From the sequence record KX009778: DNA of 64,000 nucleotides. One strand, given 5' to 3'. A program made the translations under genes and the position numbers. This DNA is from Escherichia phage UFV-AREG1. Position 1 is the stretch's first letter. The number at the start of each line of letters is the position of its first letter. Below are positions 2,459 to 53,341 of the stretch, in pieces. The notes beneath the pieces are model-generated. The model was not told the DNA's origin and searched no databases. It saw only the letters and a program-made list of their open reading frames with translations.

Positions 2459-4278
2459 TACTGACTCATCCATTCTTTGCGAAGGTCAGCATTATCTCCC
2501 ATGAGCATTTCAAAAAGCTCTTTCCAGTTCTCAGGAAGTTTAACAACATCATATACTGGATTTTGAATCATCTCACGATATTCAGATTTTTCTAAAGAGC
2601 CAAGTCCCTTAATATAACGGATGCTATGTTTAGGCAGAGCATCTTTGGCGCTCTCATATTCAGCGACTGTATAAAACCATTCTTGTTTTTTACCGACCTG
2701 AGCGATGATTACAGGAGTTTTGACAAAGCGAATTCTTCCTTGTTCAAACAGTTCTGGCCAATTACTAAAAAATCCGAGCAGAGAAGGATAAATGCTTCCT
2801 AGACCATCATGGTCAGCATCAGTCATAATAGCAATATTATGATAATTCAAGTTTTCAGCTTTTTCACCAAGAACTAGACCAGTGATTGCGCAAATATCAA
2901 ATAGTTCTTTGTTTTTAAGCATATCAGCATATGACATACCCCAACTGTTGAGAACTTTACCACGCAATGGATAACCACCATGAAGTTCTTTATCACGAAC
3001 ATCAATAAGATATCCGATAGCCGAATCACCCTCAGTCAGGAAAAGAGTAGTGTCAGCATCTTTACCACAAAGATTCGCTTTAATATGTTTATGAACCTTA
3101 GCTTTAGAAGCCTTTTTAGCTGCTTTAGTTTCTGCTGCCTTTTCTGCCGCCAATTTACGAGCCAAGGCAGCTTCAATAATTGGCATTAAAATTGCTTCAT
3201 TATTTAAAATAGCACGTGAAATCTTTTTAGCATCAAGCTGAATATGACTACGGATTTCACCAAATGGAGAAGTCAGACGCTCTTTAGTTTGAGAGTCAAA
3301 TCGCATGTTTTTCATATCACGAACAAACATAACGATAGTCAAACATTCTTTAACACGTGCTTTAGTTACATCAATTTTGAATTTACGTTTGATTTGTGGA
3401 ATAAGGTCTTCACAAATATCATCCATAACGCAGTCAATGTGATGGCCACCATTCTTAGTGTGAATGTTATTCACATAAGTTAATTGACGAAATCCATCCG
3501 GTGAACGACCAACCGCAATAGAACAATTTTCTTGTTCTTGAACAATAGCATGTTCATCATACTGTCGTGCATATTTCTTAAAATTGCCCTGAACCTTTTT
3601 ACCATTAAAGGTAAATTGAATATCAGGATAAACAACAGCAAGTGTCTGGAGACGATCTAGTGTAATGTCAAGATAAACTTGAGATAGCTCATTAGTTTCA
3701 AATGACATAAAATCAGGAATGAAAGTAACACGAGTTCCTTTCCATTTTCCAGGAATAGTTTCCCAGGATTTATTTTCCATGCCATTTGAACAACGAACTA
3801 CAATATTATTTTGACCATCGCCAGTTTCACCGACAAACATCACAGAAAAAATGTTAGTTAAACTAGAACCAACACCATTCATACCACCGGTGACGCGTTC
3901 TTTATCATCACCAAAGTTACCACCTGCTTTTGGAATAGTCCAAGCAGCAACTGGGCCAGGAATTTCTTCACCGGTAGGTGTTTTAACCATCGCTTGTGGA
4001 ATACCGCGACCGTTATCTTCAACTGTTACCTGATTATTTTTAATGGTAACATTAATTTTATTTGCGAATTTAAACTTAGTACGAATACCTTCATCTACTG
4101 AGTTATCGATAATTTCATCAATAAGCTTAACAAGACCAGGTACATACTGAACACTTTCCCATTTACCAAACAGAAAGCGCTCATGCATTTCATTAGCTGA
4201 AGAGCCAATGTACATGCCGCTACGCTTTTTGATATGTTCAATATCGCTCAGAATTTTAATTTCATTCTTAATCATCAC
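2458..4278 (-). CDS. 39: DNA topoisomerase II large (ATPase) subunit, uninterrupted gp39 plus gp60-equivalent
   Basis: 606 aa; GyrB-like ATPase N-terminus MMIKNEIKILSDIEHIKKRSGMYIGS; C-terminal part continues in frame with sequence that T4 encodes in separate gene 60. Confidence 0.9.
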   Translation of the reverse strand: MMIKNEIKILSDIEHIKKRSGMYIGSSANEMHERFLFGKWESVQYVPGLVKLIDEIIDNSVDEGIRTKFKFANKINVTIKNNQVTVEDNGRGIPQAMVKTPTGEEIPGPVAAWTIPKAGGNFGDDKERVTGGMNGVGSSLTNIFSVMFVGETGDGQNNIVVRCSNGMENKSWETIPGKWKGTRVTFIPDFMSFETNELSQVYLDITLDRLQTLAVVYPDIQFTFNGKKVQGNFKKYARQYDEHAIVQEQENCSIAVGRSPDGFRQLTYVNNIHTKNGGHHIDCVMDDICEDLIPQIKRKFKIDVTKARVKECLTIVMFVRDMKNMRFDSQTKERLTSPFGEIRSHIQLDAKKISRAILNNEAILMPIIEAALARKLAAEKAAETKAAKKASKAKVHKHIKANLCGKDADTTLFLTEGDSAIGYLIDVRDKELHGGYPLRGKVLNSWGMSYADMLKNKELFDICAITGLVLGEKAENLNYHNIAIMTDADHDGLGSIYPSLLGFFSNWPELFEQGRIRFVKTPVIIAQVGKKQEWFYTVAEYESAKDALPKHSIRYIKGLGSLEKSEYREMIQNPVYDVVKLPENWKELFEMLMGDNADLRKEWMSQ

Positions 4279-5811: not shown

Positions 5812-6081
5812 TTAATTAAACAGTGGAGCGATGCGTTTCAGAAGAGTAGCAGCACCTTTGGCGAATTTTACATCATGAAAAACAGTTTCTTCTTCCGTTA
5901 CAACACGAGCTTTAATGTTTTCACAATCCCAATTTTTGCGAACAATCTTCAAAAGCTGCAGTAAATCTTTACATTCAGCAATATCGATAACACATCCACG
6001 AGAATCTTCCATTATCGCACGATAACCGTAAGCCATACCATAATCGTTGAAAGATTGCTCGATGATAATTAAGTTTTCCAT
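5812..6081 (-). CDS. hypothetical protein
   Basis: ORF 5812-6093; start moved to second ATG (MENLIII) because the first ATG lies inside the shared GGAGAATAAAATG leader. Confidence 0.45.
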   Translation of the reverse strand: MENLIIIEQSFNDYGMAYGYRAIMEDSRGCVIDIAECKDLLQLLKIVRKNWDCENIKARVVTEEETVFHDVKFAKGAATLLKRIAPLFN

Positions 6082-6178
6082 TTTATTCTCCAAGTTGTTT
6101 TCTGTATCAGTAGTTGATATTGATATAGTACCATAATCAACTACTGATGTATATAGTTTTATGAAAAAATTTTAAACT

Positions 6179-6667
6179 TTATGCATAGAGAGCATTGCTA
6201 TAGTGTTTAATCCAACTTTCAGGAATGACTTTGTATGTTCCTAAAAATACCACATTGTATAACTTAACGCCATCTTCTACCCATTGATCGGTAATATATC
6301 CACACATAGCACGAGTATAAGCAGCCTTTCCATCATCTTTGATAAATTTAAATTCGCAAGGAGCAATGAACTTAATAGCTTGACCGAGTTTCCACTTAAA
6401 GTCTACGCCTACATGCGAAGTATCAATCGTTTCAATTCCTTTAGCAGGAACAGCTTTCAAAAACGCAGATTCAAGAAATTTCGCACGAACATAGCCAAAC
6501 TGAGGTTTAGACTTTCCATCTTTAGGAATGATACGCACTTTTACTTCAGAATCTTCATCTTTAACGCCATGTTTAAGCTGAATGCTTACAATTTCGACCA
6601 ATTTTCCTGCTGCTTTAGAGCGGGATTTATCAGATACACGAGCTAATTCACCAATATTAATAATCAT
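6179..6667 (-). CDS. MotB-position protein (possible DNA-binding early protein)
   Basis: 162 aa, same length as T4 MotB and same position upstream of dexA; early promoter at 6712-6741; paralogous to 6741-7151. Confidence 0.55.
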   Translation of the reverse strand: MIINIGELARVSDKSRSKAAGKLVEIVSIQLKHGVKDEDSEVKVRIIPKDGKSKPQFGYVRAKFLESAFLKAVPAKGIETIDTSHVGVDFKWKLGQAIKFIAPCEFKFIKDDGKAAYTRAMCGYITDQWVEDGVKLYNVVFLGTYKVIPESWIKHYSNALYA

Positions 6668-6711
6668 AGTTATTTCTCACTTGTTAAAAAGATTTTATAC
6701 TCCGCGGGACC

Positions 6712-6741
6712 ATTATATTCTGGTCCCAAGAGTTTGTAAAC
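6712..6741 (-). promoter_or_regulatory. early promoter for MotB-position gene
   Basis: minus strand GTTTAC-18-TATAAT. Confidence 0.55.
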
Positions 6742-7151
6742 TAGCTTACACGAACATTAATCACTGCGCTGCGGGGAACTACGGAGTACTCTCCAGCATG
6801 AACTACATTAAGAAGTTCAACGCCATCTTCAATCCACTGGTCAGTTACCCAACCGCCAATCGGATTCGCGAATGGACGACGAATATAAACTGCCTTACAC
6901 AACAAATCAGTCGGGTCTTCAGGTTTTTCAATTTCTGTCAATAGACTAAAATCTTTTTCATAAATAATAAGCGGTGATACCATTCCATAATAGTTTCTAA
7001 TTTCAATATACATCATACCGATAAGAATTCCGCTATTAACACTAATAACAGTAAAAGGATATCCGCCAGTTAAACCAAGAAGTTCACAAAACTTATTATG
7101 AGCTGTATTAGACAGTACCGAAAAATTCTTAATTTCATCAAATTTTTTCAA
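6741..7151 (-). CDS. paralog of the MotB-position protein
   Basis: 136 aa; shares motif DQWIEDGVELLNVVHAGEYSVVP with DQWVEDGVKLYNVVFLGTYKVIP in 6179-6667. Confidence 0.5.
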   Translation of the reverse strand: MKKFDEIKNFSVLSNTAHNKFCELLGLTGGYPFTVISVNSGILIGMMYIEIRNYYGMVSPLIIYEKDFSLLTEIEKPEDPTDLLCKAVYIRRPFANPIGGWVTDQWIEDGVELLNVVHAGEYSVVPRSAVINVRVS

Positions 7152-7188
7152 TTAATAAACAGCATTATTTTTAATCATAATTTTCTCT

Positions 7189-7692
7189 TTAATCTAAGGT
7201 AATAAAGCCTTTTAATTCGGCATGGGATTTGCGGAACATTACTTGGTGCCCACCAATGATAACTTCATCTTCAGGAACTTCGTATACAGCAAGATAAAAT
7301 CCTTTAGAAGCTAATTCTTCACGCTCTTCTCGTGTGAACCATCTCATCATATCATATTCACTAGCGAAAGCAAAATGATAAAGAGCTATAAACCATCCTG
7401 GAATATAGTGATCTACGCCTACATATTCCTCTTTCTCAAATTTAGTATTAATTGCTATATTAGCATTTTTAACTAATAATTTGTCTTCGCGCGGAAGAGG
7501 AATTCTTTTGTTATCATTACTATGATGTGTAAAATTAGGTCTATCATAACCTACGTGTAATAACCACTCTTCGCTCCATGAATCTATTATACTCCTGTAT
7601 GGCGTTATTTGAACACAAAGATTTCGACGTATTGTTATAGCATCTTCACAATTAAGAATACTAAACGATGATTCAACACGGTAAATTTTCAT
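7189..7692 (-). CDS. hypothetical protein
   Basis: ORF 7189-7731; start moved to MKIYRVESS, preceded by GAGGA RBS and early promoter 7720-7749. Confidence 0.55.
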   Translation of the reverse strand: MKIYRVESSFSILNCEDAITIRRNLCVQITPYRSIIDSWSEEWLLHVGYDRPNFTHHSNDNKRIPLPREDKLLVKNANIAINTKFEKEEYVGVDHYIPGWFIALYHFAFASEYDMMRWFTREEREELASKGFYLAVYEVPEDEVIIGGHQVMFRKSHAELKGFITLD

Positions 7693-7719: not shown

Positions 7720-7749
7720 ATAATACCACAACTAACCGAGGAAGTAAAC
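7720..7749 (-). promoter_or_regulatory. early promoter
   Basis: minus strand GTTTAC-18-TATTAT, 20 nt upstream of RBS/ATG of 7189-7692. Confidence 0.55.
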
Positions 7750-24161: not shown

Positions 24162-24398
24162 TCAAATGCAAGTAGTAATTACTCCAGTAGTGCTTATGCA
24201 GATATTACCCATTTGCACACCTAAAGACCCATTTGTATTCACATGAAGATTATCATCAATTTTAACTGATATTTTACCATTAGTGTGAATAACGGTGCTA
24301 GATTCAATCACAGGTTGAGTATCATTTTCAACACTAACAAATGGAACTGCTGCTAATGCAACTAAACACACTGCTAAACATCCCATAACAATTTTCAT
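24162..24398 (-). CDS. small secreted protein
   Basis: ORF 24162-24410; start moved to MKIVMGCLAV (signal peptide); first ATG lies in the shared GGAGAATAAAATG leader. Confidence 0.5.
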   Translation of the reverse strand: MKIVMGCLAVCLVALAAVPFVSVENDTQPVIESSTVIHTNGKISVKIDDNLHVNTNGSLGVQMGNICISTTGVITTCI

Positions 24399-24419
24399 TT
24401 TATTCTCCAAATCTGTATC

Positions 24420-24462
24420 AGTTGATAGTTGTATAGTACCACAGAGGAACAGTCTTGTAAAC
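24420..24462. repeat. 43-bp dispersed repeat (promoter cassette), second copy at 50173-50215
   Basis: AGTTGATAGTTGTATAGTACCACAGAGGAACAGTCTTGTAAAC identical at both loci; partial third copy at 51614-51657. Confidence 0.8.
24433..24462 (-). promoter_or_regulatory. early promoter (cassette copy)
   Basis: minus strand GTTTACA-17-TACTAT; 43-bp identical to 50173-50215. Confidence 0.55.
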
Positions 24463-24549
24463 AGTTTTGTGAAAAATTTTTAGGGAATTCTAAAGGTCCA
24501 GAATCATCTGTTTTTCATAAGTATAGATTTATATTACTTGTATGAAAAA

Positions 24550-50621: not shown

Positions 50622-51590
50622 TTATTTCAGAAGAGTAACCTCAGCGATTTCTTCCCAACCGTTTTTGTCGGTCATAATAAAGTCAGCAAGATAAAGAGCA
50701 GTACGCAGTGAAACATTGCGTAAACGATTAACATTGACTTTCATCCATGATAATGCTTTATAAGTTTCTTCATCAGAAAGACCGCGCTTTTGCATCATGT
50801 CGGTTGAAAGAATAACATCTTCAACCCTGACCATAATTTCTTCATTAGTGTGAACACCCAAATCCAAATAAACTGAGCGGGACACCAATGCTTGTAAATG
50901 TGGAGCAAGTTTAGTACCACGGTCTAATTCGCGGTCAATGTCAACGTTTGTGATAAAAACAATCGTTCCTTTAAATTCAAACTCACGCTCAATGCCTTTT
51001 TCTTCTAAGTAAGAAGACGCAGTACTCCAGCAGACTTTACGGGTCTCTCCAGTGTCCAGAGCGGCTTTTAGAAGATTAAGAATGTCCATATCAGAGAAAA
51101 CATCCACATCATCAATCAAAAGGACAGAATTCTCTTCACGATTATTCCAAAGCTGCTCATAAAGACCAATACCAGAGATTTTACCATTAATGCTTTTATA
51201 TTCAATGTATCCAATATCATTTGCTTTATTTAAAGCTTTATCTAAAGAATACGTTTTACCAATACCTGCTGCGCCAGAGATAATTAATGAACGAATATTT
51301 CCATTAATAATACCATTCGTCATCATTCCCATAACATTAAATCTTTTATTAATGCGGGTTTTCATATCTTCATATGATTCTTTAACTTCTTCAACTTTTA
51401 CACCATCATATGAAATATCTGATTTGTAAACCCAAACACCGCGACGTTTACCGTCAATTTCAACAAAAACTTTACCATCTCCTTGTGCATCTACCGGAGC
51501 ATTATCTGGGAACCATTCGCCTAAGAGCTCAAAAGTTCCAGAGATTTCTTTACCGAAGTAGATACCCTTATTGATAGTTACAGTTTTCAT
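50622..51590 (-). CDS. P-loop NTPase (AAA-like ATPase)
   Basis: Walker A GAAGIGKTYS and Walker B LLIDDVD; start moved to MKTVTINK behind shared leader; promoter 51628-51657. Confidence 0.6.
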   Translation of the reverse strand: MKTVTINKGIYFGKEISGTFELLGEWFPDNAPVDAQGDGKVFVEIDGKRRGVWVYKSDISYDGVKVEEVKESYEDMKTRINKRFNVMGMMTNGIINGNIRSLIISGAAGIGKTYSLDKALNKANDIGYIEYKSINGKISGIGLYEQLWNNREENSVLLIDDVDVFSDMDILNLLKAALDTGETRKVCWSTASSYLEEKGIEREFEFKGTIVFITNVDIDRELDRGTKLAPHLQALVSRSVYLDLGVHTNEEIMVRVEDVILSTDMMQKRGLSDEETYKALSWMKVNVNRLRNVSLRTALYLADFIMTDKNGWEEIAEVTLLK

Positions 51591-51627
51591 TTTATTCTCC
51601 AAATCCGTATCAGTAGTTGATAGTTGT

Positions 51628-51657
51628 ATAGTACCATAAAGCTTTATGCTTGTAAAC
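51628..51657 (-). promoter_or_regulatory. early promoter for P-loop ATPase gene (cassette copy)
   Basis: minus strand GTTTACA-17-TACTAT, stem-loop 51685-51709 just upstream. Confidence 0.55.
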
Positions 51658-51684
51658 CGTTTTGTGAAAAAATTTTTGAAAATA

Positions 51685-52327: not shown

Positions 52328-53341
52328 TCATTTATAATAACTTCGGTGGTTTTCAAGATAAACCTTCTCAAGGAAATCATCCCAAAAACCCATGTCTACT
52401 TTTTGCTGCATACCGTTCTTAGAAGCTTCAATGGATGCTGCTTCTACTTGATCGACCACATCTTCCAAAAACTCTTGAACAGTTTTAAATGGATGTTTAC
52501 CCAGCTTCACGTCGAGAATAAACGGAGCATCTTGAAGTGGATAGACTAAGTCACCAGTTTTGTAAATTTCCAATAGTTGGAGTCCACCACGACAAGCATG
52601 ACTCAATGCTTTCCAGTCAATACCTTCATTCGCTTCAGCCTTACGAGCACGTTCACCGTATTCGGCATCAAGTTTATTCAAAGACTGCTTAAGCTCAATA
52701 AGAGAAAGTGTTGTCTGATATTTACGACCCAACACAGTGTAGAACGTTTGTGGACCGGTTTTCTCATGATTATGGAATACCCATTCACAGAATTCGTTCT
52801 CTGGAAGACGATGCTTAATATCTTCAACTTTAGTGCGACGTTGCTTAATGGAACCGTCTTCTTGGTAATCAACCCATTGCTCAGGGATTTGATTAACTAC
52901 TTTCAATACATCACGCAATGCGGCCAAACGAGAACCCTTAACACCATATTTAGAAGCTTGCTTGCGGACATATCCTAAATAGGATTTCATGTTAGTCGTA
53001 TAAAAACGAGAACGATTGTCTTGAATAAACTTCCATACATCAGGCAAATCAGATTTAACTACCAGTTCAGGTGGAGTGTGAAGCATATCCAATGCTACAG
53101 TTTCACCATCTGCTGCTAATTTAAAGAAATATTTAAGACTGTATAGTTCATGGTCAATATCATCTTTAGTGTTTTTAGATGATGTGTTGTTCGTGTTTTT
53201 ACTCATATGCTCTTTAACATTTCCGATAAGAATATCACGAGCAGGAGGAACAAAGATTTCTTTAAAATCTACATCAGATTCTGGAGTAGAAGTTCCATAA
53301 AGATGACTACCAAAATAGCTTTTCATTACTGTTTTCATCAT
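52328..53341 (-). CDS. nucleotidyltransferase-fold protein (Pol-beta-like NTase superfamily)
   Basis: 337 aa; N-terminal GS-x(9)-DxD signature (YFGSHLYGTSTPESDVDF) typical of minimal NTase fold; function unknown. Confidence 0.55.
   Translation of the reverse strand: MMKTVMKSYFGSHLYGTSTPESDVDFKEIFVPPARDILIGNVKEHMSKNTNNTSSKNTKDDIDHELYSLKYFFKLAADGETVALDMLHTPPELVVKSDLPDVWKFIQDNRSRFYTTNMKSYLGYVRKQASKYGVKGSRLAALRDVLKVVNQIPEQWVDYQEDGSIKQRRTKVEDIKHRLPENEFCEWVFHNHEKTGPQTFYTVLGRKYQTTLSLIELKQSLNKLDAEYGERARKAEANEGIDWKALSHACRGGLQLLEIYKTGDLVYPLQDAPFILDVKLGKHPFKTVQEFLEDVVDQVEAASIEASKNGMQQKVDMGFWDDFLEKVYLENHRSYYK

What the first reader, a model, noticed from the sequence alone, without database searches (positions are those of the whole stretch)
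6179..7151. Tandem paralogs at the motB position
Two adjacent genes (162 and 136 aa) share a conserved block D-Q-W-(I/V)-E-D-G-V-x-L-x-N-V-V...Y-x-V-(I/V)-P and each has its own early promoter. This suggests a duplicated early host-takeover gene; T4 MotB has been linked to DNA binding.
Basis: partly seen in the sequence, partly recalled or inferred. Interest (0 to 1): 0.4.

Follow-up and report, generated by a model that had tools for sequence, protein, structure and literature searches.

The report
T4 motB and motB.1 share a domain
The two neighbouring genes are the known T4-type early genes motB and motB.1, whose shared C-terminal domain was already published in 2021, so the finding is real but ordinary; in this phage motB.1 is also cut by a premature stop codon.

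Summary
The window is a Tequatrovirus (T4-like phage), 99.8% identical to Escherichia phage slur02/slur04. The 162-aa ORF (6179-6667, minus strand) is MotB itself (Pfam PF17613, E 9e-111). The 136-aa ORF (6741-7151, minus strand) is MotB.1, the gene just upstream.

The shared block is real: BLASTP E 5e-12, z = 18.7 against shuffles, profile-profile probability 98%. Homology is confined to the C-terminal ~60-75 residues. The N-terminal domains show no detectable similarity.

Son et al. 2021 already described this shared domain and suggested a duplication. Kim et al. 2025 described the MotB.1 N-terminal domain as LSm-like.

Two details of the finding are wrong:
- Only motB has its own early promoter (TTTACA-17-TATAAT, 6712-6740). 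The motB.1 ATG lies 10 nt after the motB.2 stop, so motB.1 is served by the promoter upstream of motB.2 (7720-7748).
- The 136-aa ORF is an artefact. The canonical gene has 145 codons starting at ATG 7178, and here it carries an ochre codon at codon 9.

My models show the shared domain as an SH3/Tudor-like barrel, not the published OB-fold. The T4 reference motB.1 (119 aa) carries an extra G that is absent from the other T4-type records. Novelty: already known. Interest: low.

The parts
6179..6667 (-). motB coding sequence (162 aa plus stop). It encodes a basic (pI 9.3) two-domain protein with a KOW-like N-terminal barrel and the shared C-terminal barrel.
   Evidence: ORF list. Pfam PF17613 at 367 bits over 1-162. 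PHROG 1671. 99% identical to P0121. T4 and slur02 annotation. AF2 model with pLDDT 80.5. pI.
6182..6403 (-). Shared C-terminal domain of MotB (residues 89-162). It contains DQWVEDGVKLYNVVFLGTYKVIP and a ~15-residue insertion relative to MotB.1.
   Evidence: CTD alignment A4. DSSP strands 97-109, 115-131, 134-141, 144-149, a 3-10 turn, then 153-156.
6712..6740 (-). Early promoter of motB: TTTACA-17 nt-TATAAT.
   Evidence: 11 of 12 sigma-70 match. Exact match to the T4-type early consensus TTTACW-N17-TAYWAT, which has 16 matches in the window, all on the minus strand, against 0.34 expected. The consensus is from PMC4122927. Both hexamers are the same in T4 and slur02; one spacer base just before the -10 is A here and G in both.
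6699..6733 (-). Stable hairpin (GGGACC...GGTCCC core) straddling the -10 box of the motB promoter, in the motB.1-motB spacer.
   Evidence: RNA fold -20.2 kcal/mol, z = -3.5. The GGGACC/GGTCCC core is the same in T4. No T-run follows, so it is not a canonical terminator.
6741..7178 (-). motB.1 gene as defined in relatives (145 codons plus stop), interrupted here at codon 9.
   Evidence: Alignment with slur02 and T4. Translations. slur02 annotates this span as 'putative MotB.1'. PHROG 2333 E 6e-64.
7152..7154 (-). In-frame ochre codon (TAA) at codon 9 of motB.1. slur02 and T4 have CAA (Gln) here.
   Evidence: No record in the phage collection exceeds 99.5% identity over 6650-7250. The exact 136-aa product is not on record.
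6741..7151 (-). It is the part of motB.1 after the ochre codon, starting at a TTG with no Shine-Dalgarno sequence.
6744..6920 (-). Shared C-terminal domain of MotB.1 (residues 78-136 of the ORF), EDPTDLLCK...DQWIEDGVELLNVVHAGEYSVVPRSAV. It is acidic (pI 4.75).
   Evidence: Alignments A3 and A4. Pfam motB match at 95-130. DSSP strands 87-90, 98-108, 111-118, 121-126, a 3-10 turn, then 130-132. pI.
7189..7692 (-). motB.2 (167 aa from ATG 7692). Its stop lies 10 nt before the motB.1 ATG, so the two genes form one transcription unit.
   Evidence: PHROG 1106, function unknown.
7720..7748 (-). Early promoter TTTACT-17 nt-TATTAT upstream of motB.2. It is the nearest consensus early promoter that can serve motB.1.

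Best explanation
These are the T4-type early genes motB and motB.1.

Shown here:
- Each protein is predicted as two small beta-barrels joined by a linker.
- The two proteins share one homologous C-terminal domain (the C-terminal part of Pfam PF17613, about 40% identical).
- That domain is fused to unrelated N-terminal domains. MotB has a basic KOW-like barrel. MotB.1 has the barrel published as 'LSm-like'.
- The shared domain is modelled as an SH3/Tudor-like barrel (b1-b2-b3-b4, 3-10 turn, b5). The conserved block forms strands b2 to b4.
- motB has its own early promoter. motB.1 is co-transcribed with motB.2.
- In this phage motB.1 has an ochre codon at codon 9.

Taken from papers:
- MotB binds DNA tightly and non-specifically, co-purifies with H-NS and StpA, alters H-NS footprints, de-represses H-NS-silenced genes when over-expressed, and doubles burst size.
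- Deleting motB.1 changes neither burst size nor latent period in the laboratory.

Inferred:
- The pair arose by duplication of the C-terminal module followed by domain shuffling, not by a simple whole-gene tandem duplication.
- MotB's DNA affinity comes mainly from its basic N-terminal domain and basic insertion. The shared barrel, with its invariant D-x-W-x-E stripe, more likely has a structural or partner-binding role.
- motB.1 is probably a null or strongly reduced allele in this phage.
For: Identity:
- Pfam, PHROG and the annotation of T4 and slur02.
- 99.8% DNA identity to slur02.

Shared domain:
- BLASTP E 5e-12, hhalign probability 98%, z = 18.7, CTD alignment A4 with invariant F, D, W, E, L, N, V, V.
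- N-terminal-only profiles are unrelated.
- Chimeric architectures occur in other phages: P0118, P0230, P0233, P0236, P0239, P0242 and P0243 have a KOW-like N-terminus with a DPTDLL-type C-terminus.

Fold:
- AF2 models with pLDDT 80.5 and 78.9.
- Foldseek against viral models links the MotB.1 model to MotB models.

Charge: MotB +7, pI 9.3. MotB.1 -3, pI 5.35.

Promoters.

Ochre codon.

Literature: PMC6070864, PMC7827196, PMC12152347.
Against: - Son et al. 2021 assigned the MotB C-terminal domain to the OB-fold by HHpred.
- Which MotB domain binds DNA has not been measured.
- The full-length hhalign alignment also ran through the N-terminal halves. This may reflect very remote common ancestry, or the chimeric sequences in alignment A3.
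- Whether the ochre codon abolishes MotB.1 is not known. Reinitiation at the adjacent TTG, or a base-calling error in the source assembly, cannot be excluded.
Confidence: 0.85

Rival explanations
1. Whole-gene tandem duplication: motB and motB.1 descend entirely from one ancestral two-barrel gene, and the N-terminal halves have diverged beyond sequence recognition.
For: - The genes are adjacent and on the same strand.
- Both N-terminal domains are predicted as small beta-barrels of similar size.
- The full-length profile alignment extended over 116 columns, including the N-terminal halves.
- Son et al. 2021 suggest one gene may have arisen by duplication of the other.
Against: - N-terminal-only profile comparison gives probability 0.6%.
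- MotB.1's N-terminus groups by structure with GoF and Frd.2, not with KOW domains (PMC12152347).
- Several phages combine a KOW-like N-terminus with a MotB.1-type C-terminus, and others stack two or three N-terminal modules before one C-terminal domain (P0231, P0235). This points to modular shuffling.
Confidence: 0.2
2. In this phage motB.1 is a dead gene, so the locus holds one functional gene (motB) plus a decaying relative rather than two working paralogs.
For: - Ochre codon at codon 9, where slur02 and T4 have CAA.
- The only start codon right after it is a TTG without a Shine-Dalgarno sequence.
- The lost residues include the conserved N-terminal 'I-x-I-x-x-T-Y-x-L-K' segment.
- Deleting motB.1 in T4 changes neither burst size nor latent period.
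- Deletion remnants of motB.1 exist in other phages (P0245, a 43-aa fusion of the motB.2 start to the MotB.1 tail; the RB69 29-aa peptide).
Against: - The rest of the ORF is intact and identical to slur02 at protein level, so the lesion is very recent or is a sequencing error.
- Termination-reinitiation at the abutting TAA-TTG is possible.
- The protein family is otherwise well conserved. Among 228 cluster representatives, only the T4 reference protein has a truncated tail.
Confidence: 0.5
3. The shared block is a chance or low-complexity motif with no common ancestry.
For: None beyond the shortness of the most obvious motif.
Against: E 5e-12, z = 18.7, Pfam score above the gathering cut-off, hhalign probability 98%, and the same predicted strand order in both models.
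Confidence: 0.01

Closest known systems
T4 MotB (Pfam PF17613 'motB, modifier of transcription'; PHROG 1671)
   Same: The 162-aa ORF matches the model end to end (367 bits) and is 99% identical to the common Tequatrovirus MotB cluster. It has the same position between motB.1 and cef, and its early promoter hexamers match those of T4.
   Different: Nothing of substance. My model shows the C-terminal domain with SH3-like topology rather than the HHpred-based OB-fold assignment of Son et al. 2021.
T4 MotB.1 (PHROG 2333; 'Category 2' MotB homologs of Son et al. 2021; LSm-like fold family of Kim et al. 2025)
   Same: Same position directly after motB.2, 98% identical to 145-aa proteins of close relatives, and the same N-terminal and C-terminal domain pair.
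   Different: This copy has an ochre codon at codon 9. The T4 reference protein (119 aa, P39415) ends inside the conserved block because of an extra G. That G is absent from the 13 other T4-type records, which encode or align to a 143-aa protein.
SH3-like small beta-barrels (Tudor, PWWP, chromo, and KOW domains of NusG/Spt5)
   Different: Sequence identity is only 9-23%. No aromatic cage or KOW signature was tested. This is a resemblance of fold only, not family membership.
PeSL promoter/stem-loop cassettes of T4-like phages (Arbiol 2010; Comeau 2014)
   Same: The intergenic spacers around motB carry the T4-type early promoter consensus together with stable hairpins. A ~110-nt promoter/leader cassette is repeated at three places in the window.
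   Different: These cassettes are context, not part of the paralogy itself. I did not test whether they mediated the domain shuffling.

Membership tests
Pfam PF17613 (MotB) | Score above the curated gathering cut-off (25 bits) | tested here: met
   MotB scores 367.3 bits over 1-162. MotB.1 scores 32.9 bits, but only over profile positions 118-153.
Pfam PF17613 (MotB) | Full-length match including the N-terminal KOW-like domain | tested here: not met
   This applies to MotB.1; MotB meets it. The MotB.1 N-terminus does not match the model, and N-terminal-only hhalign gives probability 0.6%. MotB.1 is therefore a partial, domain-level member.
MotB (functional definition, Patterson-West 2018; Son 2021) | Tight non-specific DNA binding, co-purification with H-NS and StpA, and toxicity in E. 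coli | not testable with these tools
   Known for T4 MotB. The window's MotB is nearly identical, so the same function is inferred. MotB.1 is acidic (pI 5.35), so the same activity should not be assumed for it.
T4 early genes | Own early promoter matching TTTACW-N17-TAYWAT upstream of the gene | tested here: met
   Met for motB at 6712-6740. Not met for motB.1: there is no match between 7179 and 7719, and the nearest is 7720-7748 upstream of motB.2.
MotB.1 / PHROG 2333 | Profile match over N- and C-terminal domains, position after motB.2, and an intact ~143-145 codon frame | tested here: inconclusive
   The profile match (E 5.8e-64) and the position are met. The reading frame is broken by TAA at codon 9.
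LSm-like fold proteins of Tevenvirinae (GoF, MotB.1, Frd.2; Kim 2025) | N-terminal five-stranded bent antiparallel sheet | tested here: inconclusive
OB-fold, cold-shock DNA-binding type (published assignment for the MotB C-terminal domain) | b1-b2-b3-helix-b4-b5 topology and structural matches to OB-fold proteins | tested here: not met

The most novel reading that the evidence does not exclude
The shared C-terminal barrel may be an SH3/Tudor-like partner-binding module, not an OB-fold DNA binder. Its invariant acidic-aromatic stripe (D-x-W-x-E on strand b2) would dock both proteins onto one common basic partner, for example H-NS/StpA or a polymerase-associated protein. The interchangeable N-terminal barrels (KOW-like, LSm-like, 'Category 4') would supply different nucleic-acid or target specificities. 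T4-like phages would then carry a small modular toolkit aimed at the host nucleoid.
Probability: 0.15. Interest if true: 0.45.

Novelty: already known. Interest (0 to 1): 0.1.

Why it matters
The main point is settled literature and adds nothing new. MotB and MotB.1 share a C-terminal domain and may derive from a duplication (Son et al. 2021).

Three by-products could be useful to people working on these proteins:
- The T4 reference sequence used to define 'MotB.1, 13.8 kDa, 119 aa' carries an extra G that is absent from the 13 other T4-type records. Native T4 MotB.1 is most likely 143 aa with a complete C-terminal barrel. This affects constructs and models built from NC_000866.
- The shared domain looks SH3/Tudor-like rather than OB-fold in AlphaFold2 models. 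Together with the acidic charge of MotB.1, this questions whether that domain is the DNA-binding part.
- A natural ochre allele of motB.1 in this phage fits the reported dispensability of the gene.

Tried and rejected
- **Third copy in the window.** A six-frame motif scan and tblastn with both proteins found only the two known copies. The weak hit at 52853-53059 (E 0.019) lies inside a 337-aa unrelated ORF and was dismissed as chance.
- **Relatives outside T4-like phages.** An exhaustive HMM search of 1.84 billion representatives with the C-terminal profile gave only 34 hits. The long multi-stretch hits (the one I read, P0246, is built of Ig-like 'YQWQKNGVSLTN' repeats) were dismissed as false positives. 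No new family link emerged.
- **Source of the ochre allele.** An 81-nt query around the ochre codon returned nothing, probably because of low-complexity masking or word size. A 601-nt query showed that no record exceeds 99.5% identity. An exact-protein look-up of the 136-aa product found nothing.
- **Promoter annotation.** The AF158101 record lists only CDS features in this stretch.
- **Full-length homology.** The full-length hhalign alignment running through the N-terminal halves did not hold up in N-terminal-only comparisons.

Full report
**What is at the coordinates.** A 3-kb stretch around them is 99.8% identical to Escherichia phages slur02, slur04, slur11 and slur13. It is more than 90% identical to hundreds of Tequatrovirus genomes. 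Gene order matches T4: dda, dexA.2, dexA.1, dexA, motB.2, motB.1, motB, cef, goF. The 162-aa ORF matches Pfam PF17613 'motB' end to end (367 bits) and PHROG 1671, so it is MotB itself. The 136-aa ORF matches PHROG 2333 (E 6e-64) and corresponds to the slur02 gene annotated 'putative MotB.1'.

**Is the shared block real?** Yes.
- BLASTP aligns MotB 114-151 with MotB.1 86-128 at 22/43 identities, E 5e-12.
- The Smith-Waterman score is 110, against 27.7 +/- 4.4 in 2000 shuffles (maximum 53; z = 18.7).
- The Pfam motB model hits MotB.1 at 32.9 bits, above its 25-bit cut-off, over profile positions 118-153.
- The PHROG models cross-hit.
- hhalign of family alignments gives probability 98%, E 6.5e-14.

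An alignment of 26 C-terminal domains from both families shows invariant F, D, W, E, L, N, V and V, and nearly invariant L, G, Q, G and G. MotB also carries a ~15-residue insertion in the first hairpin.

**How far the homology extends.** It is limited to the C-terminal 60-75 residues. Profiles built from the N-terminal domains alone show nothing (hhalign probability 0.6%). By contrast, the MotB.1-type and 'Category 4' N-termini are weakly related to each other (probability 62%, E 8e-5).

Other phages carry chimeras. Some have a KOW-like N-terminus (MKINDRVYVS..SRSKVAGE) fused to a DPTDLLC-type C-terminal domain. Others have two or three N-terminal modules before a single C-terminal domain. I therefore read the pair as domain-level paralogs produced by duplication of the module plus shuffling, not as a plain whole-gene tandem duplication. 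This is an inference.

**Already published.** Son et al. 2021 (PMC7827196) state that T4 MotB and MotB.1 share a conserved C-terminal domain but have different N-terminal domains. [quoted passage not shown] Kim et al. 2025 (PMC12152347) describe the MotB.1 N-terminal domain as an LSm-like barrel shared with GoF and Frd.2. They report that a motB.1 deletion in T4 changes neither burst size nor latent period, and that a motB.1 amber mutant plates normally. Patterson-West et al. 2018 (PMC6070864) show that MotB is toxic, binds DNA, co-purifies with H-NS and StpA, and doubles burst size. The central observation is therefore known.

**Structure.** AlphaFold2 with family alignments gave a MotB model (pLDDT 80.5) and a MotB.1 model (pLDDT 78.9). 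Each shows two small beta-barrels joined by a linker; the MotB linker is of low confidence. In both C-terminal domains the order is four strands, a 3-10 turn, then a fifth strand, which is the SH3-like arrangement. The conserved block forms strands 2 to 4.

**Distribution.** A profile of the shared domain was searched against 1.84 billion representative proteins. It found 34 proteins at E <= 1e-3 and 23 at E <= 1e-10. The credible hits seen are proteins of 43-251 aa. The long multi-stretch hits look like false positives; the one I read (P0246) is built of Ig-like repeats. The domain family is therefore very small. I did not determine the source organisms of the newly found representatives.

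**Charge.** MotB is basic (net +7, pI 9.3; N-terminal domain +5). MotB.1 is acidic (net -3, pI 5.35; C-terminal domain pI 4.75). I infer that the shared barrel is unlikely to be the electrostatic DNA-binding element. MotB's DNA affinity more likely comes from the basic KOW-like domain and the basic insertion. This has not been tested.

**Promoters.** The T4-type early consensus TTTACW-N17-TAYWAT (PMC4122927) occurs 16 times in the window, always on the minus strand, against 0.34 expected. One match sits directly upstream of motB (6712-6740, TTTACA-17-TATAAT; its hexamers are the same in T4). The next sits upstream of motB.2 (7720-7748). There is none upstream of motB.1, whose ATG (7178) follows the motB.2 stop by 10 nt. 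A weaker sigma-70-like site lies inside motB.2 (7586-7613, 10 of 12). The claim that each gene has its own early promoter therefore holds for motB only.

**The motB.1 reading frame.** In slur02 and T4 the gene starts at the ATG equivalent to 7178. In this window codon 9 is TAA instead of CAA (7152-7154). No phage record is more than 99.5% identical over 6650-7250, and the 136-aa product is not on record. The allele therefore appears private to this phage. It may be a null allele, a low-level reinitiation product lacking the conserved N-terminal segment (which I infer forms the first strand of the N-terminal barrel), or a sequencing error.

**A side result on T4 itself.** The T4 reference (AF158101 = NC_000866) has GGATTGGAAGATGG where this window, T4T and MT984581 have GGATTGAAGATGG. 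The extra G shifts the frame inside the conserved block, giving ...DQWIGRWR* and the annotated 119-aa protein.
- Only the two reference records match the query at 100% over its full 271 nt.
- Thirteen other T4-type records match at 99.6% over a 270-nt span, which is consistent with a one-base gap (eleven labelled T4 or T4T, plus RB55 and RB59).
- The gap was checked directly in T4T and MT984581, which annotate a 143-aa MotB.1 with a complete C-terminal domain.
- Among 228 cluster representatives, only the T4 reference protein has a truncated tail.
- A search for the word 'frameshift' found it in neither Son 2021 nor Kim 2025.

**Verdict.** Novelty is 'already known' and interest is low. The corrections (no own promoter for motB.1, ochre-interrupted frame, homology limited to one domain) and the side results (T4 reference frameshift, SH3-like rather than OB topology) are minor refinements.

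Noticed in passing
window 7152-7154 (minus strand): motB.1 carries an in-frame ochre codon (TAA) at codon 9, where slur02 and T4 have CAA. No record in the phage collection shares it.
   Followed up: yes
L002 (T4 NC_000866) about 3292-3310, equivalent to window about 6835: The T4 reference motB.1 has an extra G inside the DQWIEDG codons, giving a truncated 119-aa protein. Thirteen other T4-type records (eleven labelled T4 or T4T, plus RB55 and RB59) match over one base fewer, and the two checked directly encode 143 aa. This is probably an error, or a private mutation, of the reference sequence.
   Followed up: yes
window 6063-6173, 24392-24482, 51572-51676 (minus strand): A ~110-nt cassette (A/T-rich stretch, early promoter, leader, GGAGAATAAAATG start) is repeated at about 75% identity at three places. 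It resembles the PeSL promoter/stem-loop cassettes described for T4-like phages.
   Followed up: partly
window 6106-6148 (minus strand): A 13-bp perfect inverted repeat (ATCAGTAGTTGAT...ATCAACTACTGAT) lies just downstream of motB. RNA fold -20.2 kcal/mol, z = -5.1. It overlaps the degenerate promoter of the next ORF.
   Followed up: partly
window 5812-6081 (minus strand): A small ORF (89 aa from the ATG at 6081 annotated in slur02; PHROG 3720, function unknown) sits between motB and cef. T4 has no annotated gene in its ~170-nt spacer there.
   Followed up: partly
window 6699-6733 (minus strand): A stable hairpin (GGGACC...GGTCCC, z = -3.5) straddles the -10 box of the motB early promoter; its stem core is the same in T4. 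GGAG follows it. Its role is not known; it could affect read-through transcript stability or processing.
   Followed up: partly
window, whole, minus strand: All 16 exact matches to TTTACW-N17-TAYWAT lie on the minus strand (expected 0.34). They give a ready map of candidate early promoters for the 64-kb window.
   Followed up: no
proteins P0245, P0231, P0235 (other phages): P0245 (43 aa) fuses the motB.2 N-terminus to the last 29 residues of MotB.1 and is probably a deletion remnant. P0231 and P0235 (about 250 aa) stack several N-terminal modules before one shared C-terminal domain.
   Followed up: no
window 7586-7613 (minus strand): A sigma-70-like site, TTCAAA-16-TATAAT (10 of 12), lies inside motB.2. 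It could be a secondary promoter for motB.1, but it does not match the T4 early -35 consensus.
   Followed up: no
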